A stretch of 64,000 bases of DNA, taken from positions 14,808-78,807 of the forward strand of contig CAYTER010000003.1 of NCBI GenBank assembly GCA_964436815.1, in the 5' to 3' direction. Source of the stretch: an uncultured Syntrophomonadaceae bacterium (GTDB taxonomy: Bacteria; Bacillota; Dethiobacteria; DTU022). Numbering within the stretch: position 1 is the stretch's first letter; each line of letters starts with the position of its first letter. The notes beneath the pieces were generated by a model. That model ran no database searches, was not told the DNA's origin, and saw nothing but the letters and a program-made list of their open reading frames with translations. Positions 42,811 through 60,161 of the stretch are shown here, one piece after another. A program made the translations under genes and the position numbers.

Positions 42811-42853
42811 GTTACTGTTTACCTTCGCTTGTAATAAAAATTAGCGGTAAAAG

Positions 42854-44519: not shown

Positions 44520-44562
44520 TTATCTTGTAATGACAGGATAACAACATGAAGGGATGAATTTA

Positions 44563-45390
44563 ATGGAAGGCAAAAATAGTAGCAGATATATCGACAAAAA
44601 TAGTGTTATTCCATATTATTACCAGCTAAAAGAACAATTAAAATCATTTTTTGAAGAAAACAATATGAAAGAAGGTGAGCAGATACAGTCAGAAGCTGAG
44701 TTGTGCAGGACTTATGGTGTAAGTCGGACTGTGGTGAGACAGGCAATTGCTGATCTGGTTAATGAGGGTTTGCTTTTCCGTCAGAAGGGTAAAGGAACTT
44801 TTATTGCAAAACCAAAAATTATTGGTAGTCTAATGCAAAATTTGAATGGTTTTTATAAAGATATGATGGTTAAAGAATTCAAAACAAAATCTGAAATCCT
44901 TGATTTTTCTATAGTTGCTGCACCAAAGAAGATCGCCTACAGACTCCAGCGTGAAGAGGGAGAGAAATTATTTAAAATTGACCGACTTCGCTTTGTCAAC
45001 GATGAACCAATTGTTTGTGTTATATCTTACATCCCCTTTAGTCTCTGCCCCGAACTAATTAATGAAGACCTAACCAATCAATCACTCTACGCAGTAATGG
45101 AGGAAAAGTATAATTTAAAAATTGCTTCTAGCCGCCGATCGATTGAAGCAGTTGGGGCGACTGAGGAAATCGCTGCCCTTCTGGGCATTGAACACTGCGC
45201 ACCAATATTTTTACTCAAAAGTATTAGTTATCTGGAAAACGGAATGCCGGTTGAATATTACGAAGCAAAGCACCGGGGTGATCGAATGGGTTTCGAAGTT
45301 GAAATAATTAATCAAAAAAAATCAAACCATCTCGACAGTGTTGATCTGAGTTTTCAAGTAATGAACCTTTCAGGACACAAGCAAGTATAG
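44563..45390 (+). CDS. GntR-family transcriptional regulator, HutC subfamily (UTRA effector domain)
   Basis: N-terminal wHTH (…LCRTYGVSRTVVRQAIADLVNEGLL…) and a C-terminal UTRA-like domain. Start at ATG 44563 (SD AAGGGA 9 nt upstream); ATG 44554 is an alternative. Confidence 0.85.
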   Translation: MEGKNSSRYIDKNSVIPYYYQLKEQLKSFFEENNMKEGEQIQSEAELCRTYGVSRTVVRQAIADLVNEGLLFRQKGKGTFIAKPKIIGSLMQNLNGFYKDMMVKEFKTKSEILDFSIVAAPKKIAYRLQREEGEKLFKIDRLRFVNDEPIVCVISYIPFSLCPELINEDLTNQSLYAVMEEKYNLKIASSRRSIEAVGATEEIAALLGIEHCAPIFLLKSISYLENGMPVEYYEAKHRGDRMGFEVEIINQKKSNHLDSVDLSFQVMNLSGHKQV

Positions 45391-45510
45391 ATAGTAGCAC
45401 CAAGCTGGTATCGCAAAGGGGGTGCTCGATGAATTAGTGATGGGTAGATAAGAGTTTAAGAACAACTAAGTTAGTTGGGCAGTAAGTATCATAAAGAGGA
45501 GGAGAATAGT

Positions 45511-46680
45511 GTGAAAAGAAAGTGCAATATTTTAATGCTGATTTTTGTTGTTATGATATCCGGGTTTCTGGTAATCGGCTGTGCGCCGAGTACCCCTGCC
45601 GAACCACCGGCAGAGGATGGTGAGTTAGTTTTAGAGAAAATAGTTATTGGCTGGACTCCCCCCGACATAACAGGGGTGTTCCAGACTGCAACTGAGTACT
45701 TCGAGCTGGCTGCTGAAGATGCCGGTAAAAGTGGTATTGAGGTTGAGGTGATTTCACGCTCCCCAGCTACCCACGTTGCTTTTGCCGACCAGGTAGCCAT
45801 TATTGAAGATTACATTACCATGGGTGTTGATGTAATCGCTATTTCGCCCACTGAGGTAGAAGTAGTCAAACCAGCGCTCCAGCAGGCTAACGCTGCGGGG
45901 ATCCCTATTATTATGGTTAACCTGTTAGAGCCAATTGATGGCGTGGATATCGCCTGTTATATCGGGTTCGACAACTTTGATGGCGCAGCCATCACAGCCT
46001 ATTCATTAGTAGATTACTTCGGTGGTCCCGGGGTCTTAGGTGAGGGTGATAAAGTTGACGCGACACCTGAAACTTATCTTGACCTGGCCTGGTGGGAAGA
46101 TGTTTATGCCGGTGTTGATCCTGCAGCATCGGGTATCGAAGCGCGCGGTGCGATTATTGAAGGCGTAGCTGGAGGCTTTTTCTCCGTTACCCGTGTGGAA
46201 GGCTTCCGCTCAGTAATCGACGAGTACCCGGGTATAGTTGAAGTAATGGAGCCAATTCCAGCTGACTGGAACAGAGAAAAAGGTATTGCAGCTGCAGAAG
46301 ATATCCTGGCAGCCAACCCTGAAGGAACCCTGGACTGGATCTGGGCAGCCTCTAATGAAATGGGTATGGGAGCCAGGCTTGCCTGTGAATCTGCAGGCAG
46401 GACCGAAGTTGCAGTATTTACAAATGACGTAACACCAGAATCAGTTCTTGAATTTATCAATAAAGATCGCATAGTGGCAGAAACAACTCACGGCTTTCCT
46501 GATTGGGGATGGTTTGGAACGAAGTATGCTGTAATGTTGGCACTTGGGTTGGATGTACCGCAATTTGAAGACATTCGCCCACGTACTGCTTACAAAGATA
46601 ACAGCTTCATGTTCTACCCAGAACCTGTATTACCACCAATTGATTGGGATGAAATTTTGGTCAATGCAGGTTTGAAGTAA
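45511..46680 (+). CDS. Sugar ABC transporter substrate-binding lipoprotein (CUT2/RbsB-like type I PBP)
   Basis: GTG start with AAGAGGAGGAG RBS and a VIGC lipobox. Periplasmic sugar-binding fold, about 390 aa. Confidence 0.82.
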   Translation: MKRKCNILMLIFVVMISGFLVIGCAPSTPAEPPAEDGELVLEKIVIGWTPPDITGVFQTATEYFELAAEDAGKSGIEVEVISRSPATHVAFADQVAIIEDYITMGVDVIAISPTEVEVVKPALQQANAAGIPIIMVNLLEPIDGVDIACYIGFDNFDGAAITAYSLVDYFGGPGVLGEGDKVDATPETYLDLAWWEDVYAGVDPAASGIEARGAIIEGVAGGFFSVTRVEGFRSVIDEYPGIVEVMEPIPADWNREKGIAAAEDILAANPEGTLDWIWAASNEMGMGARLACESAGRTEVAVFTNDVTPESVLEFINKDRIVAETTHGFPDWGWFGTKYAVMLALGLDVPQFEDIRPRTAYKDNSFMFYPEPVLPPIDWDEILVNAGLK

Positions 46681-46891
46681 CCAACGGTAAGGGGGGGGGA
46701 TAATCTACCCCCCTCCCTTACACTACCTGCCACTCAGCTTGATAGCTGAGTTTAGCAGCATACACATGTTTATTGTACATCAAATTTATTATCTTAAAAA
46801 GACCATCATAAAAACACATGCTATTACATAATGTTATAGTAACAGCCTTGCAGTTCACATATCAGCAAGTTTGTGCAAAGGAGAGTCGGGT

Positions 46892-48397
46892 ATGGTTCAA
46901 ACACCGCTACTCGAGCTGAAGGGTTTAAATAAAAGCTATCCTGGTGTTCAGGCTTTAAAGGGAGTTGATTTCGATCTACATTCCGGTGAAGTGCACTTTT
47001 TGCTTGGTGAAAATGGAGCCGGAAAGTCTACATTGCTGAAAATTCTAAGTGGTTCAGTACAAAAAGACAGCGGTACAATTCTGCTTGAAGGAGTTCCAAT
47101 CGAGATTAACAACCCGGCTGATTCGCGACATCATAAGATTGCCATGGTTTATCAAGAACTGAGTTTACTACCATCTCTTACAGCAGCAGAAAATATATTC
47201 CTGGGTGAGCTTCCCCTAAAGAGATGGAGTAAAACTGTTGATTGGAAAAAAGTTTACAACGAAACAGAGGCCGCATTAAAAACAGTCGGATTAAATATAA
47301 CGCCACAGAAATTGGTTAATGAACTTTCTGTTGGCGAGAAACAACTGGTGGAGATAGCCAAAGCAATGTCACGAAAAGCTCGGATTCTGCTTCTTGACGA
47401 ACCGACTTCTGCGTTGACAGGAGAAGAATCTGACAAGCTTTTTACTCTGATAAAAGAGTTACAGGCAAAAGGTATTGCCATCCTCTATATCTCCCATCGC
47501 TTGGCTGAATTGCCCAAAATAGCTCAGCGGGTTACTGTTCTCCGCGATGGCGAAAAGATGGGGACCTTTCCTGTAGACGATGTTGAAGAAAAAGATCTGA
47601 TCAGAATGATGGTGGGTCGGGAAATTGAAGAAAAATATCCAAAAGAAAAAATTGCAATCGGAGAGCCTCTGCTGGAGGTAATCAACCTTAACCTGAAAAA
47701 CCGTATCAAGGGTTTAAACCTGACGGTGAGAAATGGAGAAATTGTCGGTGTTTTCGGGTTAATGGGTGCAGGAAGAACCTCACTGGCCAATGTTCTCTTT
47801 GGTATTGAAAAACCGGACAGTGGGCTAGTCAAAGTTAACGGCAGTAATGTTAGCATTAATAACCCCTGGGATGCAATTCGTGCTGGTTTTGGGTATATCA
47901 CGGAAGATCGGCGCGGCAGTTTAGCTCCGCGTATGAGCATAGCGGCAAATATAACCCTGCCCAATCTCAAGCGCCTTTTATTGTGGGGTTTCCTGAGCTT
48001 ATTTAAAGAAAAGCTCCTGGTTCAGAACTTTGTAGACGAGTTGAAGATCGCCACACCGAACTTGCAGCAGCTCTGTGAGTTTCTTAGCGGGGGTAATCAG
48101 CAAAAGGTAGTGCTGGCACGCTGGATTTGTGCGAATTCAAAGATTTTGTTATTGGATGAGCCGACAAGAGGTATAGATGTTGGCTCAAAAGTTGAAGTAT
48201 ACCGCTTAATGGGTCGGTTAGCGAAAGAGAATGCGGCTATATTGATGTTCAGTTCAGAGCTTCCTGAAGTAATGGCTGTCAGCGATCGCATACTGGTAAT
48301 GTGTGAAGGAGAAATTGCTGCATCTTTCAATCAAAATGAGACAACCCCGGATGAAATCATGTTGTATGCAACGGGACGGAGGAAAGCGTGTGGATAA
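46892..48397 (+). CDS. Sugar ABC transporter ATP-binding protein with duplicated ABC domains (RbsA/MglA/XylG-like)
   Basis: Two nucleotide-binding domains (GENGAGKST; LSGGNQQK; LDEPT). Start at ATG 46892 with AAAGGAGAG RBS. Confidence 0.88.
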   Translation: MVQTPLLELKGLNKSYPGVQALKGVDFDLHSGEVHFLLGENGAGKSTLLKILSGSVQKDSGTILLEGVPIEINNPADSRHHKIAMVYQELSLLPSLTAAENIFLGELPLKRWSKTVDWKKVYNETEAALKTVGLNITPQKLVNELSVGEKQLVEIAKAMSRKARILLLDEPTSALTGEESDKLFTLIKELQAKGIAILYISHRLAELPKIAQRVTVLRDGEKMGTFPVDDVEEKDLIRMMVGREIEEKYPKEKIAIGEPLLEVINLNLKNRIKGLNLTVRNGEIVGVFGLMGAGRTSLANVLFGIEKPDSGLVKVNGSNVSINNPWDAIRAGFGYITEDRRGSLAPRMSIAANITLPNLKRLLLWGFLSLFKEKLLVQNFVDELKIATPNLQQLCEFLSGGNQQKVVLARWICANSKILLLDEPTRGIDVGSKVEVYRLMGRLAKENAAILMFSSELPEVMAVSDRILVMCEGEIAASFNQNETTPDEIMLYATGRRKACG

Positions 48398-49436
48398 TAA
48401 TAAAATAGCTCAAGTAACTGCTCTACAGGAAAAGTTGAAAGTAAAGCTAACTGCCTCAGACTATTTGCGAAAAGCAGTAGCCATGGGTGGCCCGGTTATT
48501 GCTCTAGCGTTGCTGATGACCTATTTTAGTATAGCTTCGCCTTTCTTTGCCACCAGCGGAAATATCATCAATATTACCCGTCAATCTTCCATAAATATAA
48601 TGTTAGCTACCGGTCAGAGTTTAGTGATTCTATCAGGTGGTATCGATCTTTCGGTCGGAGCGATAATGGCGCTGGCTGCTTCTGTTTCAACTGTTGCCAT
48701 GACCTATCATGGTATCAATGTTTGGCTGGGTATGCTGCTTAGTCTGGGTGTAGGATCTTTTGCCGGTTTCATAAACGGGTTGGTTATAGCCAAAGGTAAG
48801 GTGCCTGACTTTATCGCCACCCTTGGTATGATGACCGTAGCACGAGGAGTGGCCTTGCTTGTCACCGGTGGCCTTCCTGTTCCGTCGCATCGGATTGCCC
48901 ATGAAGTTGTAGCTCACATCCCCGATCAATTGTTATGGCTTGGCGGAGGCAAACTTTTTGGTATACCAACCGCACTGCTGGCAGCTATTGGGATTGTTCT
49001 TTTAGGCTGGTTCATCACCCGTTATACAAGATTGGGACGTTCATTATATGCAGTAGGCGGAAACAAAGAAGCAGCCCGAGTATCCGGAATAAACATTGAA
49101 CGCACCAAAATAGCCGTCTATACCATATCCGGGGCTTTTGCCGGAATAGCAGCTTTAGTCCTGACGGGACGTATGAACTCCGCCAATGCACTAATGGGTG
49201 AAGGAGCAGAGCTGCAGTCTATTGCAGCTGTGGTTATCGGTGGTTCTAATCTATACGGTGGTGAAGGCGGTGTCGGAGGCACCCTAGTCGGAGCGCTTAT
49301 TATGGGTGTTCTGAATAATGGTTTGAACCTGATTAATGTTTCTGCATTCTGGCAGAGAGTTATTCTGGGTTCAGTACTGATCACTGTAGTAATCTTTGAT
49401 CAATGGCGTCGCCGGCGTCTTTCGGTTACACACTAG
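48390..49436 (+). CDS. Sugar ABC transporter permease (RbsC/XylH-like, BPD type-2)
   Basis: GTG start that overlaps the ATPase stop, with CGGAGG RBS. About 10 TM helices. Confidence 0.85.
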   Translation: MDNNKIAQVTALQEKLKVKLTASDYLRKAVAMGGPVIALALLMTYFSIASPFFATSGNIINITRQSSINIMLATGQSLVILSGGIDLSVGAIMALAASVSTVAMTYHGINVWLGMLLSLGVGSFAGFINGLVIAKGKVPDFIATLGMMTVARGVALLVTGGLPVPSHRIAHEVVAHIPDQLLWLGGGKLFGIPTALLAAIGIVLLGWFITRYTRLGRSLYAVGGNKEAARVSGINIERTKIAVYTISGAFAGIAALVLTGRMNSANALMGEGAELQSIAAVVIGGSNLYGGEGGVGGTLVGALIMGVLNNGLNLINVSAFWQRVILGSVLITVVIFDQWRRRRLSVTH

Positions 49437-49488
49437 CAAGGGTAAGCGACATTTGACAGCAAAGCTATTATTCCAGGGAGGTTCGGTA

Positions 49489-50250
49489 ATGAATTTTAAC
49501 GGCAAAGTAGTTATTGTTACCGGCAGTGGAGAAGGCATTGGCCGTGCGACTGCCATTGCTTTTGCCCAAAAAGGAGCCCGCGTGGCAATTGCTGACGCCG
49601 CTCCTCTGAAGGGAAAAGATACTGTTGCATTAATTGAAGCCAGTGGTGGCGAGGCAATGTTTGTTGAAGTGGATGTTTCCAATAATGAAAGTGTAGGCCA
49701 AATGGTTGGTAATGTGATTCAAGTTTTTGGTACTATAAATATCCTTGTCAATAATGCTGGTATACACGCTCAGGGTGATGTGGTGAAAACTTCTGAAGAT
49801 GCATGGGATAAGATTATGGCCGTGAATCTGAAAGGAGTTTACCTATGTTCACATCATGTGATCCCGGTGATGATTGAAAAAGGAAGCGGTGTGATCGTTA
49901 ACGTTGCTTCAGAAGCGGGAATGGTCGGCATAAAAGGACAGGTGGCTTATAACGTATCCAAGGCGGGTGTAATTTCTCTTACTCAAAGCATGGCCGTTGA
50001 TTTTGCTGCCAGAGGAATCCGGGTAAATGCTGTCTCGCCCGGAACAACAGAGACACCCTTGGTAATGAAAATACTGGATGAAGCGGATAATCCTGAAGAA
50101 ATCCGCAAGAATCTTGAAGGGTCTCGTCCCTTAAATAGGCTTGGCAGAATGGATGAAATAGCTGCAGCAATCATGGCAATGGCTTCAGAAGAGTTGGGCT
50201 ATGCTACAGGTTCTGTTTTGACAATTGATGGTGGTTATACAGCCCAGTAA
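49489..50250 (+). CDS. SDR-family oxidoreductase (KduD / gluconate 5-dehydrogenase-like)
   Basis: TGSGEGIG Rossmann motif, NNAG, and the catalytic YxxxK (YNVSK). Confidence 0.85.
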   Translation: MNFNGKVVIVTGSGEGIGRATAIAFAQKGARVAIADAAPLKGKDTVALIEASGGEAMFVEVDVSNNESVGQMVGNVIQVFGTINILVNNAGIHAQGDVVKTSEDAWDKIMAVNLKGVYLCSHHVIPVMIEKGSGVIVNVASEAGMVGIKGQVAYNVSKAGVISLTQSMAVDFAARGIRVNAVSPGTTETPLVMKILDEADNPEEIRKNLEGSRPLNRLGRMDEIAAAIMAMASEELGYATGSVLTIDGGYTAQ

Positions 50251-50292
50251 CCATCATCATATTCAGTTCACATCAGGCTGGAGGGTTTGTGT

Positions 50293-51165
50293 ATGTTCAA
50301 ATATGCAGTGAGTAACTGGATCTATGGCGAGGAAGAATTGGAGACGACCTGTAAAAGACTGCATCGTTTTGGGTATGATGCGATAGAGCTGGTAGGAGAG
50401 CCTGAACGATACAATCTGGATCAAATAAAAAGACTAACACTAAAATATAATTTAGAGGTTTCTTCTGTTTTAAGCTGGTGCCTTTGGCCTTTGGAAGATC
50501 GGGATCTGGCGCATCCAAACCATGAATATCGTGCACAGGCAGTAAATTATATCATGCGTAATGTTGATCTGGCGGTAGAGGTTGGTGCACCGATTGTGAT
50601 TATAATTCCAGCACCATCAGGGAGACCGGCACCACATCGAAATCCGACCGTAGCGGCAGATTGGCAAAATGCAGCGAAGGAAGAATGGGAGCTGGCGGTC
50701 ATTTCTGTTCGAGAAGTTGCTTCGTATGCACAGAAGAATAATATTTCTATATCGGTCGAGCCAATAAATCGGTTTGAGACATTTCTGATCAATAGCGTTG
50801 ATCAGGGGTTAAATTTTGTTGAAGATGTAGGTTTTAGAAATGTAAAGCTCCACCTGGATACATTTCACATGAATATCGAAGATGTCAATCTGGGCCAAGC
50901 CATAGTGAAAGCAGGATCGCTTTTAACAAGTATGCACCTGTCTGACAGCAACAGATGTGCTATTGGGCGGGGGCATATTGATTTCAAACAAATTATGAAG
51001 AGTTTAGCAGAAATTAATTTTCAGGGTTCATTAATTCTGGAGCCTCTTCCTCTTCATCCCAATCCATTTATTGCTGCCGATCTTGAAGAATTTCGTTCAA
51101 CCTGGGATAGCGACCTTGAAAGTAGCATCGGTGTACTGAGAGAATTGGAATCATGCTGCAGCTGA
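50293..51165 (+). CDS. Sugar phosphate isomerase/epimerase (xylose isomerase-like TIM barrel; Hyi/IolE-like), paralog 1
   Basis: AP-endonuclease-2/XI-like TIM barrel (…EPINRFETFLIN…HLDTFHMNIED…). Start at ATG 50293 with GGAGGG RBS. Confidence 0.8.
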   Translation: MFKYAVSNWIYGEEELETTCKRLHRFGYDAIELVGEPERYNLDQIKRLTLKYNLEVSSVLSWCLWPLEDRDLAHPNHEYRAQAVNYIMRNVDLAVEVGAPIVIIIPAPSGRPAPHRNPTVAADWQNAAKEEWELAVISVREVASYAQKNNISISVEPINRFETFLINSVDQGLNFVEDVGFRNVKLHLDTFHMNIEDVNLGQAIVKAGSLLTSMHLSDSNRCAIGRGHIDFKQIMKSLAEINFQGSLILEPLPLHPNPFIAADLEEFRSTWDSDLESSIGVLRELESCCS

Positions 51166-51188
51166 AATAAAAGGTTAGGAGGATTTTC

Positions 51189-53266: not shown

Positions 53267-53268
53267 GA

Positions 53269-54273: not shown

Positions 54274-55279
54274 TTTGGTTGGCGTGGGAGTAATTGGAAC
54301 GGGACGAGCTGGTATGGTTCATATAGCTAACTTTGCAGAGAATGTGCCTCGTGCCCGTTTAGTAGCAGTTTGCGATTTAGATGAAAAAAGCGTACAGGAA
54401 ACGGCCAATAAATGGAATGCAGATCCATATACAAACCCCGAAGATTTTTTAATGCACCCTTTACTTGATGCTGTGGTTATTGCCGCGCCAACCTTTGTCC
54501 ATGCAGAACTGGTTATTGCAGCTGCAGAAGCGAAAAAGGCAATTCTCTGTGAGAAACCTTTAACTATAACTGAAGAAGAAGCAGCGAGAATGGATAAAGC
54601 GGTGAAACAAAACAAAGTGCCCTTTTTGATGGGTTTTATGCGCCGCTTCGATCAAAGTTTTATTCGTGCACGGGAGATAATACAAAGTGGTGACATCGGA
54701 GAACCTTTGATGATTAAATCAACCGGTAAAGGTCCTGGTCTTCCGCCAGCTTGGAATCTTGATATTGATAGAAGTAATGGTATGTTGGCAGAAGTAAACA
54801 GCCATGATTTTGATTGTGTCCGTTTTTTATCCGGTGAGGAGTATAAGTGGGTATTTGCCACTGCCCGTAACAATAAATGTCCGGATTATAAGACGGAATA
54901 CCCTCAATTTTACGATACTGCTATCGTTACTTTCGGCATGACCGGTAAAGTGATAGGTACTATTGACGGCTCTTGCCCGGCTGACTACGGCTATGATGCC
55001 AGGGTTGAAATCCAGGGCGCTGATGGCGTTCTTTTTATTGGCAACATAGCTAAAAAGGGAGTCGTTGTTGGTCGCAAGGGTAAAGGTGTGGCAGAAGAGA
55101 TCGTTGACAGCTGGCGCTCACTTTTTCGCGAGGCTTACCTGGCGGAAGATCGCTGCCTTATCAATTCTTTGCTAAAGGGAATAGAACCGCCTTCGACTCT
55201 AAAAGATGGCTGGCAGGCGTTAAAGGCAGTTCGAGCTTCAAACCGTTCGATTCGCAGTGGAAAGGTTGAAGAGGTATGA
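54260..55279 (+). CDS. Gfo/Idh/MocA-family oxidoreductase (sugar / inositol dehydrogenase-like)
   Basis: N-terminal Rossmann motif VGVIGTGRAG and the EKP motif (LCEKPL). GTG start at 54260; GTG 54251 is an alternative. Confidence 0.82.
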   Translation: MKANDLVGVGVIGTGRAGMVHIANFAENVPRARLVAVCDLDEKSVQETANKWNADPYTNPEDFLMHPLLDAVVIAAPTFVHAELVIAAAEAKKAILCEKPLTITEEEAARMDKAVKQNKVPFLMGFMRRFDQSFIRAREIIQSGDIGEPLMIKSTGKGPGLPPAWNLDIDRSNGMLAEVNSHDFDCVRFLSGEEYKWVFATARNNKCPDYKTEYPQFYDTAIVTFGMTGKVIGTIDGSCPADYGYDARVEIQGADGVLFIGNIAKKGVVVGRKGKGVAEEIVDSWRSLFREAYLAEDRCLINSLLKGIEPPSTLKDGWQALKAVRASNRSIRSGKVEEV

Positions 55280-55296
55280 ATGAAGGAATAGAAAAA

Positions 55297-56358
55297 ATGA
55301 AAGCAGCAGTATTTTGTGACGGAATTATTAAAGTTAAAAATATTCCCCGGCCACAGCCAAAAGAAAACGAAATGGTTATAAAAGTGGAAGCTGCAGCTAT
55401 ATGCGCTACCGATCTGAAGATTTGGAAAAGAGGGCACCGCAATATTGCCTCTGGAAGTGAGACTATTCTGGGTCATGAGGTGGTCGGTATTGTATTTGAG
55501 GTTGGCTCAGAGATCGATAATAATTGGTTAGGGAAAAGAGTTGTCATACCACCCAATGTAGGTTGTGGCTTTTGTCCGGCCTGTGAGGCAGGATGGGATA
55601 GTTATTGTCCCACGTACAAAGCCTATGGCGTCGGCCTGCCGGGAAGCTTTGCTGAATATATGTTGGTAAGAGCACCGTCAGATAGATCGGAAACGCTGAT
55701 CACTGTAGCGGGTCATATCCCTACAAAAATTGCAGTTTTGGCCGAAGCAGTATCCTGTTGTTACCGCGGCTTGTATGATTGTAACCTGAAGCCTGAAGAA
55801 AAAGTTTTAATTATGGGAGCAGGCCCAATGGGGATACTTAGCGTCGTTACTGCCAAAGCAATGGGTGCTTCAACAATTATAAGCGCTGATTTTCTTGAAG
55901 AACGCAGGGATGCAAGCGAAAAATTTGGCACAACGTATGCTTTGAATCCGGCAGAAGATCATTTTGTCGAAGCAGTGAAAGAAGTAAGCGATGGCTGGGG
56001 CGTTGATGTGGTCATGGTCACTGCTCCTTTCGCAAAGGCGCAACTCCAGGGTATCATGGCTGCTGCTGTGGGAGGTCGGATTAATCTTTTTGCCGGACTT
56101 TCTCCGGATGATCGATTTGATGATTTTCCCTCAAACCTGGTTCACTACCGTGGTTTGAAAGTTCTCGGAAGCACAGGGACTACTTCGCAAGTCATGCAGA
56201 CTGTGGTAAATATGATGACTGAAGGGCATCTTGAGATCTTGCAAGAGGCGGTAACAGCAGTTTATGCGTTAGAAGATATGGAAAAAGCGTTAGATAAGGC
56301 CGGAAGCGGTAAGGAAATAAAAGTTATGGTAGTGCCTGACAGTAAGATGATAGTGTAA
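55297..56358 (+). CDS. Zinc-dependent alcohol/polyol dehydrogenase (MDR family, sorbitol/threonine DH-like)
   Basis: GHEVVG zinc motif, structural-zinc Cys cluster (CGFCPACEAGWDSYC) and GAGPMG Rossmann. Start at ATG 55297; ATG 55276 is the longest-ORF alternative. Confidence 0.85.
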   Translation: MKAAVFCDGIIKVKNIPRPQPKENEMVIKVEAAAICATDLKIWKRGHRNIASGSETILGHEVVGIVFEVGSEIDNNWLGKRVVIPPNVGCGFCPACEAGWDSYCPTYKAYGVGLPGSFAEYMLVRAPSDRSETLITVAGHIPTKIAVLAEAVSCCYRGLYDCNLKPEEKVLIMGAGPMGILSVVTAKAMGASTIISADFLEERRDASEKFGTTYALNPAEDHFVEAVKEVSDGWGVDVVMVTAPFAKAQLQGIMAAAVGGRINLFAGLSPDDRFDDFPSNLVHYRGLKVLGSTGTTSQVMQTVVNMMTEGHLEILQEAVTAVYALEDMEKALDKAGSGKEIKVMVVPDSKMIV

Positions 56359-56395
56359 CAAACTATTTCCTGTTTGTATTAGGAGAGGATCAAAT

Positions 56396-57943
56396 ATGGG
56401 CAAGACTTATTTACTGGGGATTGATTTAGGCACCATGGGAACTAAGGCAGCTCTTTACGATCTGGAAGGTAAAGCCCTGGCAGAGGCGTACGAGGAATCA
56501 ATACTTCGCTATCCGAAAATAGGCTTTGTAGAACAAGATTTTGAAGAAATATATAGCTCAGCAGTTAATTGTATTAAAGAAGTGTTAGAGAAAAGCGGCA
56601 TCGAAAGTGGTGATGTGGCGGCGCTAGCGTTCAGCAGTCAAATGTCAGGTATAGGGATGATTGATAAAGATTGGACACCGGCAGCCCATTATGACAGCTG
56701 GCTCGATACACGTTGTGAGTCAGCTTTCTCCTTAATGGAGCCTTTTTGCAATGATTTTACGGCAAGTAGTGGCTGTCCGCCTACATACGCTCATGCAGCG
56801 AAAATTATCTGGTGGAAGAATAACCAACCGGAAGTATTTAAAAACACAGCTCGATTTATAGTGCCCCTTGCCTACGTTGCAGGTAAGATGGCTGGATTAA
56901 AAGCTGAAGAAGCCTATATTGACCTCACATGCCTGCATTTCTCAGGGTTTAGCAATACCGGGGAGTCGAAGTGGTCAGAAGAGTTGCTTAATAAATTTGA
57001 AATACCAGCAGAGAAAATGCCGCGAATAATATCTCCGACAGAGATTATCGGAAAAGTTAATCGTGGAGCGGCTCGGGCAACCGGTTTAAAAGAAGGCACA
57101 CCAATTGCTGCCGGGGCAGGGGATCAGGCAGCAGCATCTTTAGGCGCAGGAGTGGTTGAACCGGGAGATGTTTTTGATAGTGCCGGGACCGCATCCGTAT
57201 TTTCTGTCTGTGTAAAAAGTTTTTTGCCTGACGTTAGGAATAAAGTTGTCCTGGCAACTCATGGTGTCATACCCGGCACTTACTATGCCCTTTCATTTAT
57301 CAACGGTGGCGGTTTAAATTTACGATGGTTCCGTGATACTTTTGGTCTTCAGGAAAAAAACGAGGCAGCGTCAACCGGTAAAGAAGTTTATCAGATATTT
57401 GATCAAATGGCTGCTCAATCCCCTGCAGGTTCAGGGGGCACAATATTTATTCCTCACCTGCAAGGCAGAGTTGTTCCACCGGATGCTTCTTTACGAGGTC
57501 TCTGGGCTGGCTTCACCTGGTCGCATAACCGTGGCCACCTGTTCAGGGCGATGATGGAAGGTGTCGCTTATGAGTACGCATACTATTTGCAGATAGAAAA
57601 AGAGCTTCACCCTGAACTTGAATGTCGGGAAGTAAGGGTGATAGGTGGTGGTGCGTCAAGCGATCTGTGGAATCAGATCAAAAGTGATGTTTTAGATATA
57701 CCATATTGCCGAATAAACCGATCTGAGGTCGGAACCTGGGGATGTGCTATGATTGCCGGCAAAGCTGTTGGGATTTTTGACGATTTAAGAATAGTTGCTA
57801 AAGAATCAACGCAGATCAGCCACCGACTTGATCCGCGACCTCACTATTCCCAGTTTTACCAGCCTTATGTAGACATTTACAGGCAGATTATCGAGGGATA
57901 CGCTGAAATTTTTAATGGTTTAAATGAGCTGCCTTTGGAGTAA
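56396..57943 (+). CDS. FGGY-family carbohydrate kinase (xylulokinase/glycerol kinase-like)
   Basis: N-terminal LGIDLGTMGTKAAL and C-terminal GGGASSDLWNQI FGGY signatures. Confidence 0.88.
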   Translation: MGKTYLLGIDLGTMGTKAALYDLEGKALAEAYEESILRYPKIGFVEQDFEEIYSSAVNCIKEVLEKSGIESGDVAALAFSSQMSGIGMIDKDWTPAAHYDSWLDTRCESAFSLMEPFCNDFTASSGCPPTYAHAAKIIWWKNNQPEVFKNTARFIVPLAYVAGKMAGLKAEEAYIDLTCLHFSGFSNTGESKWSEELLNKFEIPAEKMPRIISPTEIIGKVNRGAARATGLKEGTPIAAGAGDQAAASLGAGVVEPGDVFDSAGTASVFSVCVKSFLPDVRNKVVLATHGVIPGTYYALSFINGGGLNLRWFRDTFGLQEKNEAASTGKEVYQIFDQMAAQSPAGSGGTIFIPHLQGRVVPPDASLRGLWAGFTWSHNRGHLFRAMMEGVAYEYAYYLQIEKELHPELECREVRVIGGGASSDLWNQIKSDVLDIPYCRINRSEVGTWGCAMIAGKAVGIFDDLRIVAKESTQISHRLDPRPHYSQFYQPYVDIYRQIIEGYAEIFNGLNELPLE

Positions 57944-57987
57944 TCATCAACAATTAAGGGGATAAAACAGAGAGAAGGTGCAAAAAC

Positions 57988-58641
57988 ATGATCTCCAAGG
58001 TAAAAAATTTTAATCGTATTTATAAAGCCGGAATTATAGCTGTTGTTAGAGCTGATTCGTTCGAACAGGCGCTGGCGACATCAGAAGCCTTAAAAAATGG
58101 CGGAGTAGATGTTATTGAGATTACTCTGACTGTTCCCGGCGCTATAGATGTAATTAAAGAGCTGGCAAAAACATATCGGCACGGTGAAATACTACTTGGG
58201 GCAGGAACGGTACTCGATTCTGAGACCGCCCGCATCTCTCTGATGGCAGGAGCTGAATTTATTGTCAGCCCGTCTCTTAATCTAGATGTAATAAAGCTTT
58301 GCAATCGCTATCAAAAAATTTGTATGCCTGGATGCATGACAGTTACAGAGATTGTTTCTGCACTTGATGCCGGCGCGGATTTAATTAAACTTTTTCCTGG
58401 TAATTTTTTTGGCCCTTCAATAATAAAGACTTTAAAAGGGCCTTTACCCCAGGCTGATTTTGTTCCTACCGGAGGTGTTACCCTTGAGAATATTCAGGAT
58501 TGGATTAACAACGGATGCATTGCAGTTGGTATTGGAGGCGAGCTGACCAAAGGTGCTGCTGATGGGGATTACCATCGAATCACAGAAACAGCCCGACAAT
58601 TTGTAGAGCAAATCCGTGCAGTACGCCATTTAGAAGGATAA
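57988..58641 (+). CDS. eda: KDPG/KHG aldolase (Eda family)
   Basis: 217 aa TIM-barrel aldolase with Schiff-base lysine context (…DLIKLFPG…). Confidence 0.88.
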   Translation: MISKVKNFNRIYKAGIIAVVRADSFEQALATSEALKNGGVDVIEITLTVPGAIDVIKELAKTYRHGEILLGAGTVLDSETARISLMAGAEFIVSPSLNLDVIKLCNRYQKICMPGCMTVTEIVSALDAGADLIKLFPGNFFGPSIIKTLKGPLPQADFVPTGGVTLENIQDWINNGCIAVGIGGELTKGAADGDYHRITETARQFVEQIRAVRHLEG

Positions 58642-58665
58642 TAATGCCAGGAGGTTTGAGAGTTG

Positions 58666-59538
58666 ATGAAATATGCTATCAGCAGTTGGATTTATGGAGA
58701 CGAGAGTTTAGAGTTAATTTTTATGCGACTGGCAAGATACGGATACGATGCAGTTGAGCTGGAAGGTGAACCGGATAAGTACGATGTAAAAGAAATCTTA
58801 GAGTTATGTCGCCGGTACAGCATTTCTATATCAGGAATTGCCGGGATGTATCCATGGCCGACTGGGGAGAGGGACCTAGCTTCACCAGATCCAGAGATTA
58901 GAAAAAAGGCAGTAAAGTATTTGCTTTCCTGCATTGATTTTGCCCATGATCTGTCAGCACCGCTGGTGATAGTAGTCCCTTCTGCTGTGGGGAAAACCAT
59001 GCCTTTTCCAATCTTGAACGGAGAAGCGGATATATCAGCATGGGATGAAACGGTAGATAGGGAATGGGCTTATGCACAGGATTCAGTTGGTAAATGTTCT
59101 GAAGCTGCCAGCGAAAAAGGAATCATTCTGGCTGTCGAACCAATTAACCGATACGAAACTTTTCTTATTAATACCTGTAGCCAAGGTTTGCAGTTTATTT
59201 CACCATTTGACAAGAAAACTGTAAAAATTCATCTTGATACATTTCATATGAATATAGAGGAAAAAAGCCTGAATCAGGCTATCCTTGAGGCAGGAGACTT
59301 GCTTGCTAATCTACACGTAGCTGACAGTAATCGTCAGGCGGTTGGAAAAGGACACACAGATTTCAACGAAATAATTCGCAGTCTCAAAAGTATAAGTTAT
59401 ACAGGAGTTATTTCTTTGGAACCACTTCCGCCGGTTCCTAATCCTTATGTGGCCATGAAACTTGATCGCTATAAAGATATGCGAGATGATATAGCTCGTG
59501 AAAGTATCGAAACGCTGAAGAAAATCGCAGGATATTAG
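58666..59538 (+). CDS. Sugar phosphate isomerase/epimerase (xylose isomerase-like TIM barrel), paralog 2
   Basis: Clear paralog of 50293-51165 (MKYAISSWIYG…EPINRYETFLIN…HLDTFHMNIEE). Confidence 0.8.
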   Translation: MKYAISSWIYGDESLELIFMRLARYGYDAVELEGEPDKYDVKEILELCRRYSISISGIAGMYPWPTGERDLASPDPEIRKKAVKYLLSCIDFAHDLSAPLVIVVPSAVGKTMPFPILNGEADISAWDETVDREWAYAQDSVGKCSEAASEKGIILAVEPINRYETFLINTCSQGLQFISPFDKKTVKIHLDTFHMNIEEKSLNQAILEAGDLLANLHVADSNRQAVGKGHTDFNEIIRSLKSISYTGVISLEPLPPVPNPYVAMKLDRYKDMRDDIARESIETLKKIAGY

Positions 59539-59591
59539 ATAAGCACTTGCTGATTATTCAGAGGTTAATTAAGCATATAGGAGGTTTTGCT

Positions 59592-60161
59592 ATGCAAGAA
59601 ATAAAAATTATGGATCCTTTTTTCGTGGAAATTAGCTGTGAAGACGGTAACGTATCGCCTCCGGCAAGACTAATTAGGCGCAGGCTTAGCGATCTGGCTG
59701 GTCTGTTTTATGATCAGGATGCTTATAACAGTGCTCTGGCAGATGACGACCCAGTTCTCTATGAGGTTTATGAGGTTCGGGTGCCGGAAGAAGAAGGTCA
59801 TCTTCTATCATGTACAACAGTTATTTACCCAGGGAAAGTAGGAAAAGAATACTATTTTACCAAAGGACATTTCCACGTTCTAGAAAACCGGGCTGAAATA
59901 TATACATGTTTACGGGGGCAGGGTTATCTTTTAATGACCACCAGAGCTGGCAGAAGTCACAGCATAGCCATGAGGCCAGGAGTTTCTGCCTATATTCCGC
60001 CATACTGGTCACACCGTACACTAAACTGTGGAGAAGAACCCTTTATTTTTTATGGAGTATGGCCGGGAGATGCTGGTCATGATTATGAAAGTATTGTAGA
60101 GCAAGAGTTTCCACTGCGAGTTTTTGAAGAAAATGGGCAGCCGGCAGTTAAAAAATCATAG
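59592..60161 (+). CDS. Cupin-type glucose-6-phosphate isomerase family protein (archaeal-type cPGI)
   Basis: 189 aa from ATG 59592 with GGAGGT RBS. His/Glu metal-site motif TKGHFHxxxxxxE…YIPPYWSHRT, as in archaeal cupin PGIs. Confidence 0.75.
   Translation: MQEIKIMDPFFVEISCEDGNVSPPARLIRRRLSDLAGLFYDQDAYNSALADDDPVLYEVYEVRVPEEEGHLLSCTTVIYPGKVGKEYYFTKGHFHVLENRAEIYTCLRGQGYLLMTTRAGRSHSIAMRPGVSAYIPPYWSHRTLNCGEEPFIFYGVWPGDAGHDYESIVEQEFPLRVFEENGQPAVKKS

What the first reader, a model, noticed from the sequence alone, without database searches (positions are those of the whole stretch)
44554..60161. Sixteen-gene catabolic island embedding a tungsten-type AOR and MoaD-like protein among sugar-acid enzymes; pathway not assignable
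All sixteen genes are co-directional and tightly packed. They encode a HutC-type GntR regulator, a CUT2 monosaccharide ABC transporter, an SDR, a TIM-barrel isomerase, an aldehyde:ferredoxin oxidoreductase, a MoaD-like GG protein, a 2-hydroxyacid dehydrogenase, a Gfo/Idh/MocA oxidoreductase, a Zn-polyol dehydrogenase, an FGGY kinase, an Eda-type aldolase, a second TIM-barrel isomerase and an archaeal-type cupin PGI. An aldolase with a ferredoxin-dependent aldehyde oxidoreductase and a kinase resembles the non- or semi-phosphorylative Entner-Doudoroff logic of archaea (aldolase to glyceraldehyde, AOR to glycerate, kinase). Here it sits inside a bacterial ABC-transporter sugar operon with extra dehydrogenases. 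This combination matches no standard named pathway (Kdu, Uxa, Iol, Gnt) and may be a new route for a sugar, polyol or sugar acid.
Basis: inference. Interest (0 to 1): 0.75.

Follow-up and report, generated by a model that had tools for sequence, protein, structure and literature searches.

The report
Conserved anaerobe sugar operon with tungsten enzyme
This is a real, tightly packed 15-gene operon for importing and breaking down a still-unidentified neutral sugar or sugar alcohol; versions of it occur in many oxygen-free environments, and in this version a tungsten-type aldehyde-oxidising enzyme does a job that a relative living with oxygen gives to an ordinary aldehyde dehydrogenase.

Summary
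All are on the + strand, with gaps from -14 to 211 nt, and every family call was confirmed. The pathway stays unassigned: no enzyme except Eda reaches an NCBIfam cutoff and no paper describes the cluster.

New findings:
- The AOR belongs to a clade (at least 54% identical) found in 83 non-redundant loci from several phyla, usually beside the same gene families.
- A core of SDR, IolG-like Gfo, FGGY kinase, Zn-ADH and cupin PGI, with the same binding protein (66-70% identical), also occurs without any AOR.
- When present, AOR is often placed between Zn-ADH and cPGI. One lineage fuses AOR to cPGI. A Limnochordales cluster has an NAD(P) aldehyde dehydrogenase at that position.

So AOR is an integral but optional aldehyde-oxidising step, not an acid reductase and not a passenger gene.

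Eda is the least conserved member, the kinase pairs with the PGI, and no dehydratase is present. The pathway most likely exits at hexose-6-phosphate.

The substrate is unresolved: a cyclitol such as inositol is the leading guess, a hexitol or ketohexose the alternative.

The parts
44491..44519 (+). Best sigma-70-like promoter match (TTGACA-17-TAGAAT, 11/12), 35 nt before the GntR ATG
   Evidence: This is a consensus match only; the total number of such sites in the region does not exceed the shuffled expectation.
44554..45390 (+). GntR/HutC-type regulator (GntR HTH + UTRA effector domain)
   Evidence: Pfam PF00392 and PF07702. No NCBIfam cutoff reached. Orthologue at the head of the cluster in L003, L008, L014, L016 and L097.
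45511..46680 (+). Lipoprotein-type solute-binding protein of a CUT2 ABC transporter
   Evidence: Peripla_BP_4. More than 100 database clusters are 64-93% identical, from several phyla. The same SBP occurs in clusters without AOR. PDB relatives are only generic ribose, allose or polyol binders.
46892..48397 (+). ABC ATPase with two nucleotide-binding domains
   Evidence: ABC_tran x2. Resembles AraG, XylG and RbsA but stays below cutoffs.
48390..49436 (+). Single ABC permease
   Evidence: BPD_transp_2. Gene start taken from the database call in L001.
49489..50250 (+). Short-chain dehydrogenase/reductase
   Evidence: adh_short_C2. It passes only the broad subfamily model NF005559 (named glucose 1-dehydrogenase, 233 vs 215 bits). 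GolD/DthD- and gluconate-5-DH-like hits are below cutoff. Part of the conserved core.
50293..51165 (+). TIM-barrel enzyme no. 1, ketose-3-epimerase-like
   Evidence: AP_endonuc_2. IolO 164 bits and psicose epimerase 146 bits, both against a cutoff of 300. PDB best hits are D-psicose/D-tagatose 3-epimerases and T. maritima TM_0416.
51189..53009 (+). Aldehyde:ferredoxin oxidoreductase-family enzyme (metallopterin, presumably tungsten, plus a 4Fe-4S cluster)
   Evidence: AFOR_N and AFOR_C. Best PDB hit is P. furiosus AOR 1aor, E 5e-109. Four Cys (286, 289, 293, 494), which I take to be the cluster ligands, and the second-shell residues T241, E313, Y429 and H450 are invariant in the clade (residue roles from PMC12096430). 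Not a GAPOR: 34 bits against a cutoff of 1300.
53006..53266 (+). MoaD/ThiS-like 86-aa protein ending in GG; presumed cofactor-maturation partner of the AOR
   Evidence: PF02597, 48.7 bits. Its start overlaps the AOR stop. A small ThiS-like gene follows AOR in at least 43 of 83 loci. MoaD-like genes in an AOR operon are reported for Aromatoleum (PMC6365974).
53269..54273 (+). D-2-hydroxyacid dehydrogenase of the glyoxylate/hydroxypyruvate reductase and phosphoglycerate DH type
   Evidence: 2-Hacid_dh and 2-Hacid_dh_C. PGDH 291 bits and glyoxylate reductase 274 bits, both below cutoff. PDB best hits are Pyrococcus glyoxylate reductase and PGDH. It follows AOR(-MoaD) in most loci but also occurs without AOR.
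54260..55279 (+). Gfo/Idh/MocA oxidoreductase of the inositol-dehydrogenase clade
   Evidence: TIGR04380 IolG, 267.5 bits against a cutoff of 355. PDB best hit is 3ezy at 1e-51, followed by a run of inositol dehydrogenases. Other Gfo enzymes score 1e-20 or weaker.
55276..56358 (+). Zn-dependent medium-chain polyol-type dehydrogenase
   Evidence: ADH_N and ADH_zinc_N. Tdh 179.5 bits and IolM 179 bits, both below cutoff. GHE and Cys-rich motifs, which I read as the catalytic and structural Zn sites, are visible in the translation. Usually adjacent to Gfo.
56396..57943 (+). FGGY-family sugar kinase
   Evidence: FGGY_N and FGGY_C. XylB 266, GntK 216 and LsrK 194 bits, all below cutoff. PDB best hit is gluconate kinase 3gbt. 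Usually adjacent to cPGI in other loci.
57988..58641 (+). Eda-type class I KHG/KDPG aldolase
   Evidence: PF01081. NF005119 scores 291.7 bits against a cutoff of 238, the only curated cutoff passed apart from one broad SDR model. Present in only 7 of 16 well-flanked loci.
58666..59538 (+). TIM-barrel enzyme no. 2, ketose-3-epimerase-like; 44% identical to no. 1
   Evidence: AP_endonuc_2. IolO 166 bits and psicose epimerase 149 bits, below cutoff. The 44% paralogy comes.
59592..60161 (+). Cupin-type phosphoglucose isomerase
   Evidence: PF06560. E 2e-58 over the full length to P. furiosus cPGI structures, 49% identity. The metal, catalytic and phosphate-site residues are invariant between archaeal and cluster copies. 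Fused to the AOR in P0043.

Best explanation
Window 44554-60161 is one GntR-controlled operon of an uncultured, Syntrophomonadaceae-like anaerobe. It imports a neutral C6 sugar-like compound through a CUT2 ABC transporter and converts it to hexose-6-phosphate.

Core (inferred from conservation):
- An IolG-clade Gfo dehydrogenase, a Zn-ADH and an SDR oxidise and re-reduce hydroxyl groups.
- Ketose-3-epimerase-like TIM barrels adjust stereochemistry.
- An FGGY kinase phosphorylates the product.
- A cupin PGI, very probably a genuine one, passes it to fructose-6-phosphate.

Added module in this version:
- The AOR, matured with its MoaD-like partner, irreversibly oxidises a free aldehyde made at or after the Zn-ADH/PGI stage. 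Candidates are a 2-oxo-aldehyde or an open-chain sugar or sugar-phosphate aldehyde. The electrons go to ferredoxin.
- The GRHPR/PGDH-like 2-hydroxyacid dehydrogenase and, in this lineage, Eda handle acid products.

Shown here: gene content, synteny, the fusion, the in-situ replacement of AOR by ALDH, and the fact that AOR is dispensable.

Inferred: the direction of each step other than AOR, the exit at F6P, and the substrate. My leading guess for the substrate is a cyclitol such as myo- or scyllo-inositol (about 0.35-0.4). The next guess is a hexitol or rare ketohexose.
For: Operon structure:
- Overlapping or closely spaced genes on one strand.

Conservation:
- 83 non-redundant loci carry this AOR clade.
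- Of 16 loci with at least 5 kb on both sides: FGGY 14, 2HADH 13, Zn-ADH 13, Gfo 12, cPGI 12, SDR 8, TIM 8, Eda 7.
- Recurrent adjacencies are AOR-MoaD-2HADH, Gfo-ZnADH and FGGY-cPGI.

AOR is oxidative:
- Limnochordales contigs carry GntR-SBP (70% identical)-SDR-ABC-Gfo-ZnADH-Aldedh-cPGI-FGGY-2HADH. A non-acylating, SSADH-like ALDH sits exactly where AOR sits elsewhere.
- The second-shell residues conserved in aldehyde-oxidising AORs are present.

AOR is linked to the pathway:
- An AOR::cPGI fusion protein of 811 aa occurs on 3 contigs shown, out of 4 that carry it.

AOR is optional:
- Clusters with the same SBP (66-68% identical) lack AOR and ALDH.
- Two more clusters with related enzymes, in Anaerolineae and the cultured Desulfocucumis palustris, also lack them.

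Exit at hexose-6-phosphate:
- cPGI is 49% identical to the P. furiosus enzyme and every catalytic and phosphate-site residue is conserved.
- The minimal clusters contain no recognised C-C-cleaving enzyme.

Cyclitol lead:
- Gfo lies in the inositol-dehydrogenase clade.
- IolM-like and IolO-like hits, though below cutoff.
- Weakly shikimate-DH-like (AroE-like) genes sit in related clusters, and one also has an IMPase-family gene.
- Neomoorella thermoacetica carries a version of the cluster, and every M. thermoacetica isolate tested in one study grows on myo-inositol (PMC11328732).

Cofactor supply:
- A molybdopterin-cofactor biosynthesis cluster lies 7-13 kb upstream.
Against: - No enzyme except Eda reaches a curated equivalog or subfamily cutoff, so each specific activity is a guess.
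- For a cyclitol, a ring-opening enzyme is needed. No IolD-, IolE- or IolN-type protein, hydrolase or dehydratase is found in the AOR loci.
- From my own recollection, redox-neutral conversion of inositol to glucose-6-P is strongly uphill.
- The binding protein has no close liganded relative.
- The D. palustris version adds PfkB kinases and a class II aldolase. That points toward hexitol or ketohexose-phosphate chemistry rather than cyclitols.
- The role of the 2-hydroxyacid dehydrogenase is not tied to AOR, because it also occurs without AOR.
- Eda has no visible source of a 2-keto-3-deoxy acid.
- The M. thermoacetica link is circumstantial. I could not check whether that species also has classical iol genes.
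Confidence: 0.55

Rival explanations
1. One reading: a non- or semi-phosphorylative Entner-Doudoroff-like branch. Eda splits a 2-keto-3-deoxy sugar acid to pyruvate plus glyceraldehyde. AOR oxidises glyceraldehyde to glycerate. Glycerate is then phosphorylated, or oxidised by the 2-hydroxyacid dehydrogenase.
For: - Eda passes its curated cutoff.
- The ALDH that replaces AOR in Limnochordales is also similar to archaeal D-glyceraldehyde dehydrogenase (414 bits; PDB 5izd at 1e-111).
- The 2HADH's best structural relatives are glyoxylate/hydroxypyruvate (glycerate) reductases.
- From my own knowledge, glyceraldehyde oxidation by aldehyde oxidoreductases is known in archaeal ED variants.
Against: - Eda is the least conserved member and is absent from complete clusters.
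- No gluconate, 6PG or altronate-type dehydratase, no PfkB KDG kinase and no glycerate-kinase family member occurs in the cluster or in the AOR loci.
- The kinase is FGGY and pairs with cPGI.
- AOR is placed between Zn-ADH and cPGI and is fused to cPGI.
- The model leaves Gfo, Zn-ADH, SDR, both TIM barrels and cPGI unexplained.
Confidence: 0.15
2. Ferredoxin-linked oxidation of a hexose phosphate. cPGI delivers open-chain aldose-6-phosphate (glucose-6-P or an epimer) directly to AOR, which makes the 6-phospho-aldonate. The PGDH-like 2HADH and Eda, or enzymes elsewhere such as Gnd or Edd, take it further. This would be a ferredoxin-dependent entry into an ED- or pentose-phosphate-like route.
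For: - The AOR::cPGI fusion and AOR-cPGI adjacency.
- Conserved phosphate-site residues in cPGI.
- The 2HADH's top NCBIfam hit is phosphoglycerate dehydrogenase.
- From my own knowledge, oxidising an aldose phosphate and then applying a 2HADH has precedents in GAPN/GAPOR followed by SerA, and Epd followed by PdxB. By my estimate the 6PG/G6P couple lies near the ferredoxin potential.
- M. thermoacetica has a 6-phosphogluconate dehydrogenase (PMC5009329, abstract).
Against: - From my own knowledge, classical ALDHs need a free aldehyde and are not known to oxidise pyranose-forming hexose-6-phosphates. Yet an ALDH substitutes for AOR.
- No 6PG dehydratase is in any locus.
- 2-keto-6-phosphogluconate is not an Eda substrate.
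- cPGI is retained where AOR is absent, so its main role does not depend on AOR.
Confidence: 0.12
3. Salvage or detoxification module. AOR or ALDH removes reactive 2-oxo-aldehydes or short aldehydes, such as glyoxal, hydroxypyruvaldehyde or osones, that leak from the keto-sugar intermediates of the core pathway. The GRHPR-type 2HADH then reduces the resulting 2-oxo-acids. AOR would not be a main-line step.
For: - AOR and ALDH are optional while the core persists.
- The 2HADH is closest to glyoxylate/hydroxypyruvate reductases, which from my knowledge normally run in the reductive direction.
Against: - The fixed position and the translational coupling within the operon.
- A dedicated AOR clade co-inherited with the cluster across phyla.
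- A fusion to cPGI, which suggests a stoichiometric pathway role.
- The 2HADH also occurs without AOR.
Confidence: 0.13
4. Reductive use of AOR: a sugar acid such as 6-phosphogluconate is reduced with reduced ferredoxin to the aldose phosphate and passed by cPGI into glycolysis.
For: - The FGGY kinase's best PDB hit is a gluconate kinase.
- From my own knowledge, the 2HADH, SDR, Zn-ADH and TIM families have counterparts in the Kgu and Idn keto-aldonate pathways.
- AORs can reduce acids (PMC6365974).
- The fusion would place the two steps back to back.
Against: An NAD(P)-dependent, non-acylating ALDH occupies the AOR position in an otherwise equivalent cluster (same gene families and order, SBP 70% identical). 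From my own knowledge such an enzyme cannot reduce carboxylates. AOR-less clusters with the same SBP would have no outlet.
Confidence: 0.03

Closest known systems
Thermotoga maritima inositol pathway (IolG, IolM, IolN, IolO; Rodionova et al. 2013, cited in PMC3750489 and PMC5931981)
   Same: Gfo resembles IolG, and its best PDB hit is the T. maritima dehydrogenase 3ezy. A Zn-ADH scores like IolM. Two TIM barrels score like IolO/TM_0416. A kinase and an Eda aldolase lie downstream.
   Different: All hits are below the curated cutoffs. No protein in the cluster matched any hydrolase family such as IolN, and there is no UxaA-type dehydratase. The kinase is FGGY rather than PfkB. AOR, MoaD, 2HADH and cPGI have no counterpart in the Thermotoga pathway.
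Archaeal modified sugar catabolism using AOR-family enzymes and cupin PGI (Pyrococcus GAPOR and cPGI; glyceraldehyde oxidation in branched ED pathways)
   Same: A ferredoxin-linked AOR-family aldehyde oxidation sits inside sugar catabolism. The cupin PGI is 49% identical to the P. furiosus enzyme.
   Different: The AOR is of the AOR sensu stricto type, not a GAPOR (34 bits against a cutoff of 1300). The genes lie in a bacterial ABC-transporter operon with three or four NAD(P) dehydrogenases. AOR is optional and can be replaced by an ALDH.
Bacterial AOR operons with MoaD-like genes (Aromatoleum aromaticum aorABCDE; PMC6365974)
   Same: A small MoaD-like gene is co-transcribed with the AOR catalytic subunit and is presumed to serve cofactor maturation.
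   Different: No AorA (polyferredoxin) or AorC (FAD) subunit genes are present, so this looks like a single-subunit 'archaeal-type' AOR. The context is sugar catabolism, not catabolism of aromatic compounds or amino acids.
Keto-aldonate and idonate routes (E. coli IdnD/IdnO/IdnK; Pseudomonas KguE/KguK/KguD), recalled from my own knowledge
   Same: The same enzyme families appear: Zn-ADH, SDR, a 2HADH-type 2-keto-aldonate reductase, a TIM-barrel epimerase and a gluconate-type kinase.
   Different: This is a family-level resemblance only and was not tested. Those pathways end in Edd/Eda or Gnd and contain no AOR, cPGI or IolG-like enzyme.

Membership tests
AOR family, aldehyde-oxidising type (AOR sensu stricto) | AFOR_N plus AFOR_C domains; four Cys for the 4Fe-4S cluster; second-shell Thr243, Glu313, Tyr427 and His448 (P. 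furiosus numbering) | tested here: met
   Pfam 227 and 382 bits. 1aor E 5e-109. C286, C289, C293, C494, T241, E313, Y429 and H450 are invariant in alignment A1. Second-shell residue roles come from PMC12096430; the assignment of the four Cys as cluster ligands is from my own knowledge.
AOR family, aldehyde-oxidising type (AOR sensu stricto) | Tungsten (rather than Mo) cofactor and ferredoxin as redox partner | not testable with these tools
   The sequence cannot tell W from Mo. No ferredoxin or extra subunit gene is in the cluster. A cofactor biosynthesis cluster lies at 31300-37387.
GAPOR (glyceraldehyde-3-phosphate:ferredoxin oxidoreductase) | Match to the curated archaeal GAPOR model | tested here: not met
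   NF040818 scores 34.2 bits against a cutoff of 1300, over residues 44-153 only.
Cupin-type phosphoglucose isomerase | PF06560 fold with the metal ligands (His88, His90, Glu97, His136) and the substrate and phosphate contacts (Tyr52, Thr85, Gly87, Tyr99, His158, Tyr160) of the P. furiosus enzyme | tested here: met
   98.6 bits against a cutoff of 20.7. 2e-58 to 2gc0 and 1x7n. All listed residues are invariant in A2; only position 152 varies. Residue roles are from my own memory of the structural papers.
Cupin-type phosphoglucose isomerase | Catalyses G6P to F6P interconversion | not testable with these tools
   Inferred from 49% identity to the P. furiosus cPGI, whose characterisation I know from the literature, not from a test here.
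Classical Bacillus-type iol pathway | IolG plus IolE dehydratase, IolD (ThDP hydrolase), IolB, IolC (PfkB), IolJ (class II aldolase) and IolA | tested here: not met
   Only an IolG-like protein, below cutoff (267 against 355). The IolE model gives E 3e-6 for TIM1 only. No ThDP enzyme, KduI/IolB cupin, PfkB kinase, class II aldolase or acylating ALDH is in the cluster.
Thermotoga-type iol pathway | IolG, IolM, IolN hydrolase and IolO epimerase, all at equivalog level | tested here: inconclusive
   IolG-like 267/355, IolM-like 179/450, IolO-like 164 and 166/300. No hydrolase-type hit was seen for any of the 15 proteins at E 1e-5. I did not confirm that NCBIfam holds an IolN model.
Entner-Doudoroff variants (classical, semi- or non-phosphorylative) | A sugar-acid dehydratase (Edd or gluconate dehydratase), a KDG kinase or glycerate kinase, and a KD(P)G aldolase | tested here: not met
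   The aldolase is met (NF005119, 291.7 against 238). No dehydratase, PfkB kinase or glycerate-kinase family member is in the window cluster or in the gene families shared by the AOR loci.
Kdu/Uxa hexuronate pathways | UxaC or KduI isomerase, UxaB/UxuB reductase and UxaA/UxuA dehydratase | tested here: not met
   None of these families was detected.
MoaD/ThiS sulfur-carrier family | Beta-grasp ThiS-family domain with a C-terminal Gly-Gly | tested here: met
   PF02597, 48.7 bits against a cutoff of 22.5. The sequence ends ...PSISGG. It is below the MoaD_arch (32.5/49.5) and ThiS (27.2/37.45) equivalog cutoffs.

The most novel reading that the evidence does not exclude
The AOR clade is a dedicated sugar-aldehyde:ferredoxin oxidoreductase that works hand in hand with the cupin isomerase and, in one lineage, is physically fused to it. 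It would trap an otherwise unfavourable open-chain intermediate, for example the keto-aldose(-phosphate) formed by non-hydrolytic ring opening of an inosose, or nascent open-chain hexose-6-phosphate. That would define a previously unknown ferredoxin-coupled route for cyclitol or hexose breakdown, needing neither O2 nor a ThDP enzyme. The route would be widespread in uncultured anaerobes (Syntrophomonadaceae, Dethiobacteria, Chloroflexota) and in the acetogen Moorella.
Probability: 0.15. Interest if true: 0.85.

Novelty: new variant of a known kind. Interest (0 to 1): 0.62.

Why it matters
- A 2025 review of tungsten enzymes notes that many AOR-family clades are still purely hypothetical (PMC12096430). 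Here one clade gets a firm physiological context: a widely distributed sugar or polyol operon, a defined position in that operon, and a direction (oxidation).
- The oxygen-stable ALDH from the Limnochordales cluster could serve as a surrogate to find the AOR's substrate.
- The binding protein is 64-70% identical in more than 100 database clusters from several phyla. The unknown substrate is therefore probably a common carbon source in anoxic sediments, digesters and hot springs, so identifying it would annotate many genomes at once.
- Two cultured bacteria carry versions of the cluster: Moorella thermoacetica with AOR and Desulfocucumis palustris without. The question can be tested directly.

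Tried and rejected
- **Sixteenth gene.** I looked in the 46681-46890 gap and in 60162-60434. Nothing credible is there.
- **Acid-reducing AOR feeding 6PG to G6P to F6P.** This looked attractive on family analogies (GntK-, KguD-, IdnD- and IdnO-like enzymes) and on my own thermodynamic estimate. I rejected it once an ALDH was found in the AOR position.
- **AOR product as the obligatory 2HADH substrate.** This is weakened because the 2HADH occurs in clusters with neither AOR nor ALDH.
- **Sulfoquinovose-type substrate, with an anionic tail mimicking phosphate.** I considered this because of the SSADH-like ALDH, the PGDH-like 2HADH and a weak SftI-like isomerase hit. I dropped it because the minimal clusters have no recognised C-C-cleaving enzyme and no sulfoglycolysis markers were seen.
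- **C4 polyol route via erythrose-4-P.** This has a precedent (Epd then PdxB) but does not explain the IolG-clade Gfo or a PGI so close to the glycolytic enzymes.
- **The S. meliloti pSymB cupin PGI locus.** It turned out to have a different context.
- **Binding-protein PDB search.** It gave only generic ribose, allose and polyol binders.
- **Literature searches.** Searches for AOR with inositol, cupin PGI or MoaD, and for Moorella with inositol, found no description of the cluster. One search failed on syntax.
- **Promoter and terminator scans.** Hits were not above the shuffled expectation.

Full report
**1. What is in the window**

Between 44554 and 60161, all on the + strand, lie fifteen genes, not sixteen. 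The largest internal gap, 46681-46890, holds no credible ORF. The transporter has a single permease.

Gene starts come from database calls on an identical contig, where window coordinate = L001 coordinate + 43983. On that basis the gaps run from -14 to 211 nt. The AOR gene starts 23 nt after the first TIM-barrel gene. Its stop overlaps the start of the MoaD-like gene, which ends 2 nt before the 2-hydroxyacid dehydrogenase gene.

The best promoter-like site lies 35 nt before the GntR start, but such consensus sites are no more frequent than in shuffled sequence.

G+C drops from about 0.51 upstream to 0.39-0.46 across the cluster. Downstream come Dak2/FakA-like and DegV genes, which have no evident link to the cluster.

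**2. How specific are the annotations?**

Against NCBIfam (June 2026), the only specific model passed is that for Eda (NF005119, 291.7 bits against a cutoff of 238). The SDR passes one broad subfamily model. Everything else is sub-threshold:

| Protein | Best NCBIfam hits (bits / cutoff) |
|---|---|
| Gfo | IolG 267/355 |
| Zn-ADH | Tdh 179.5/458; IolM 179/450 |
| TIM barrels | IolO 164-166/300; psicose epimerase 146-149/300 |
| FGGY | XylB 266/380; GntK 216/649 |
| 2HADH | PGDH 291/454; glyoxylate reductase 274/455 |
| AOR | GAPOR 34/1300 |

Nearest solved structures agree with these family-level readings:
- P. furiosus AOR for the AOR.
- A T. maritima dehydrogenase (3ezy) and then a run of inositol dehydrogenases for Gfo.
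- Threonine-DH-type enzymes for the Zn-ADH.
- Ketose 3-epimerases and TM_0416 for TIM1.
- A gluconate kinase for FGGY.
- Pyrococcus glyoxylate reductase and PGDH for the 2HADH.
- P. furiosus cupin PGI, at 2e-58 over the full length, for the last gene.

In the AOR, four invariant Cys (which I take to be the Fe-S ligands) and the four second-shell residues conserved in aldehyde-oxidising AORs are all present (PMC12096430). In the cupin PGI, every metal, catalytic and phosphate-contact residue is invariant between archaeal glycolytic enzymes and the cluster-associated copies.

**3. Source and conservation**

The AOR protein occurs unchanged on two metagenome contigs that carry the same cluster.

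In one-genome-per-species GTDB contigs the closest relatives are uncultured Syntrophomonadaceae MAGs (89-93% AOR identity, full synteny). MAGs from Limnocylindrales, 'Firmicutes UBA995', Clostridiales UBA8125 and another Syntrophomonadaceae member follow at 68-75% identity.

A metagenome scan added 80 loci with AORs 53-71% identical. I clustered all ORFs from these loci. After removing near-duplicates, 83 loci remain. Of the 16 with at least 5 kb on each side of the AOR, the counts are:

| Family | Loci (of 16) |
|---|---|
| FGGY | 14 |
| 2HADH | 13 |
| Zn-ADH | 13 |
| Gfo | 12 |
| cPGI | 12 |
| SDR | 8 |
| TIM barrel | 8 |
| Eda | 7 |

Recurrent adjacencies are AOR-(MoaD)-2HADH, Gfo-ZnADH and FGGY-cPGI.

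No dehydratase, lactonase, hydrolase or ThDP enzyme is among the shared families. Minor recurrent extras are a FucI-like isomerase, a ureidoglycolate-lyase-like cupin, an unannotated 359-aa family that I did not scan, and a DeoC-like aldolase. Three loci of the clade carry the AOR with no sugar genes nearby.

**4. Three observations that define the AOR's role**

- **Fusion.** One lineage encodes an 811-aa protein with AOR joined to cPGI, set among SDR, ABC, TIM, Gfo, Zn-ADH and ThiS-like genes.
- **Replacement.** Limnochordales contigs carry GntR-SBP-SDR-ABC-Gfo-ZnADH-ALDH-cPGI-FGGY-2HADH. Their cPGI protein is indexed in 81 blocks of the collection. The binding protein is 70% identical to the window's. 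The ALDH is a non-acylating NAD(P) enzyme of the SSADH/GabD type and sits exactly where AOR sits in L016, L046, L076 and L087. An ALDH cannot reduce a carboxylate, so the AOR step is aldehyde oxidation. This removed my earlier favourite, reduction of 6-phosphogluconate.
- **Dispensability.** Complete clusters built around the same binding protein (66-68% identical) have neither enzyme. One is GntR-SBP-SDR-ABC-Gfo-FGGY-ZnADH-cPGI, followed by unrelated genes (GCA_900198705.1). Another, in Ca. Caldatribacterium saccharofermentans, adds a TIM barrel and a weakly shikimate-DH-like gene. Anaerolineae and the cultured Desulfocucumis palustris have versions without AOR that keep the 2HADH. D. palustris also keeps Eda and adds PfkB kinases, a class II aldolase and DeoC. 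A Shinella plasmid carries a more distant relative.

The conserved core is therefore SDR + Gfo + FGGY + Zn-ADH + cPGI. The AOR (or ALDH) is an insertion into it, and the 2HADH and Eda are frequent but separable companions.

**5. Most likely mechanism**

Shown:
- The genes form one co-inherited unit.
- AOR belongs to it.
- AOR oxidises an aldehyde.
- AOR is optional.

Inferred:
- The minimal clusters contain three NAD(P) oxidoreductases, a kinase, an isomerase and no recognised C-C-cleaving enzyme.
- The isomerase is indistinguishable at its active site from genuine PGIs.
- So the core most plausibly turns an imported neutral C6 compound into a hexose-6-phosphate that leaves as fructose-6-phosphate.
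- The AOR would drain a free aldehyde formed around the Zn-ADH and PGI steps into an acid while reducing ferredoxin. That would suit hydrogen-producing or syntrophic hosts.
- The MoaD-like protein is probably a cofactor-maturation factor, as proposed for aorD and aorE of Aromatoleum (PMC6365974).
- A molybdopterin-cofactor gene cluster lies 7-13 kb upstream.

**6. The substrate remains open**

A cyclitol is my leading guess, for four reasons:
- Gfo sits in the inositol-dehydrogenase clade.
- IolM- and IolO-like proteins are present.
- Weakly shikimate-DH-like genes, and in one case an IMPase-family gene, occur in related clusters.
- Every M. thermoacetica isolate tested in one study grows on myo-inositol (PMC11328732), and the species carries a version of the cluster.

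Against this, no ring-opening enzyme is recognisable. The D. palustris variant, the ketose-3-epimerase-like TIM barrels and the GatD-like Zn-ADH annotations point instead to a hexitol or ketohexose.

**7.

'No standard named pathway' and 'AOR is part of the sugar operon' both stand. The ED-like triad of aldolase, AOR and kinase is not supported:
- Eda is the least conserved member.
- There is no dehydratase to supply its substrate.
- The FGGY kinase travels with the PGI.
- The AOR is optional.

The model keeps some life only as a side branch. The replacing ALDH resembles glyceraldehyde dehydrogenases, and the 2HADH resembles glycerate dehydrogenases.

**8. Comparison with known systems**

The closest described pathway is the Thermotoga IolG/IolM/IolN/IolO route, but no hydrolase-type or dehydratase-type protein that could fill its remaining steps is present, and all similarities are sub-threshold.

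The use of an AOR-family enzyme and a cupin PGI in sugar catabolism recalls Thermococcales. Here, however, the AOR is of the broad-spectrum type, sits in a bacterial ABC operon, and is interchangeable with an ALDH.

I found no paper describing this cluster. A 2025 review of tungsten enzymes does not mention sugars at all and notes that many AOR clades remain hypothetical.

**9. Verdict**

This is a genuine, widely conserved and uncharacterised catabolic operon. I class it as a new variant of known kinds of system: a polyol or sugar ABC operon with an AOR-family aldehyde oxidation step.

The interest lies in three things:
- The defined context for an uncharacterised AOR clade.
- The natural AOR-PGI fusion.
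- The breadth of distribution.

The limitation is that neither the substrate nor the chemistry of the AOR step could be fixed by computation.

Noticed in passing
window 31300-37387 (- strand): A molybdopterin (Mo/W) cofactor biosynthesis cluster lies 7-13 kb upstream of the operon. It comprises a MOSC+MoCF_biosynth protein, a MobB-MoaC fusion, MoaA (radical SAM + Mob_synth_C), a MoeA fused to a PBP_like domain (possibly oxyanion-binding), and a second MoeA. No MoaD or MoaE was seen among the ORFs I scanned there, so the MoaD-like gene beside AOR may serve this pathway.
   Followed up: partly
window 43939-44024 (- strand): A c-di-GMP-I riboswitch (Rfam RF01051, 78 bits against a gathering score of 35, E 3e-14) lies just upstream of a 98-aa minus-strand ORF at 43594-43890. 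It sits in the spacer before the operon's GntR gene and faces away from the operon.
   Followed up: no
L011 9542-11977; also L012 and L013: A natural 811-aa fusion of an AOR (N-terminal) with a cupin PGI (C-terminal), followed by a ThiS-like gene, on JGI metagenome contigs. It is a Rosetta-stone link between the two enzymes.
   Followed up: partly
L097 8499-9944 (Limnochordales MAG GCA_035304545.1); L098: An SSADH/GabD-like NAD(P) aldehyde dehydrogenase occupies the AOR position in an otherwise equivalent cluster whose binding protein is 70% identical. It could serve as an oxygen-stable surrogate for finding the AOR's substrate.
   Followed up: yes
L105 (Desulfocucumis palustris GCA_002933875.1), about 120-15300: A cultured sulfate reducer carries a version without AOR. 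It adds a HAD phosphatase, two PfkB kinases, a class II (F_bP) aldolase and DeoC next to Eda and cPGI. This hints at a tagatose-6-phosphate-like or IolC/IolJ-like ending in that lineage.
   Followed up: no
L016 6507-7832; L014 1205-2527: A 440-aa protein with no Pfam family at significant level shows weak similarity to the L-fucose isomerase C-terminal domain (in the L016 copy) and to sulfoquinovose isomerase SftI (in both copies). It sits at the head of some clusters and recurs in 9 loci, with a second FucI-like family in 4 more.
   Followed up: partly
window 44001-46000 versus 1-42000: G+C falls from about 0.51 to 0.39 at the start of the operon and stays at 0.42-0.46 through it. Together with the cluster's spread across phyla and its 64-70% identical binding proteins, this suggests horizontal acquisition.
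   Followed up: no
window 37650-39584 (-), 41102-43540 (+), 60435-62872 (+): The flanking genes show no evident link to the operon. They are a 644-aa beta-lactamase-family protein, a 3-hydroxyacyl-CoA dehydrogenase, a Lysine_decarbox/LOG-like protein, DUF4126, a Dak2/FakA-like protein and DegV. The same upstream neighbours appear on contig L002.
   Followed up: no
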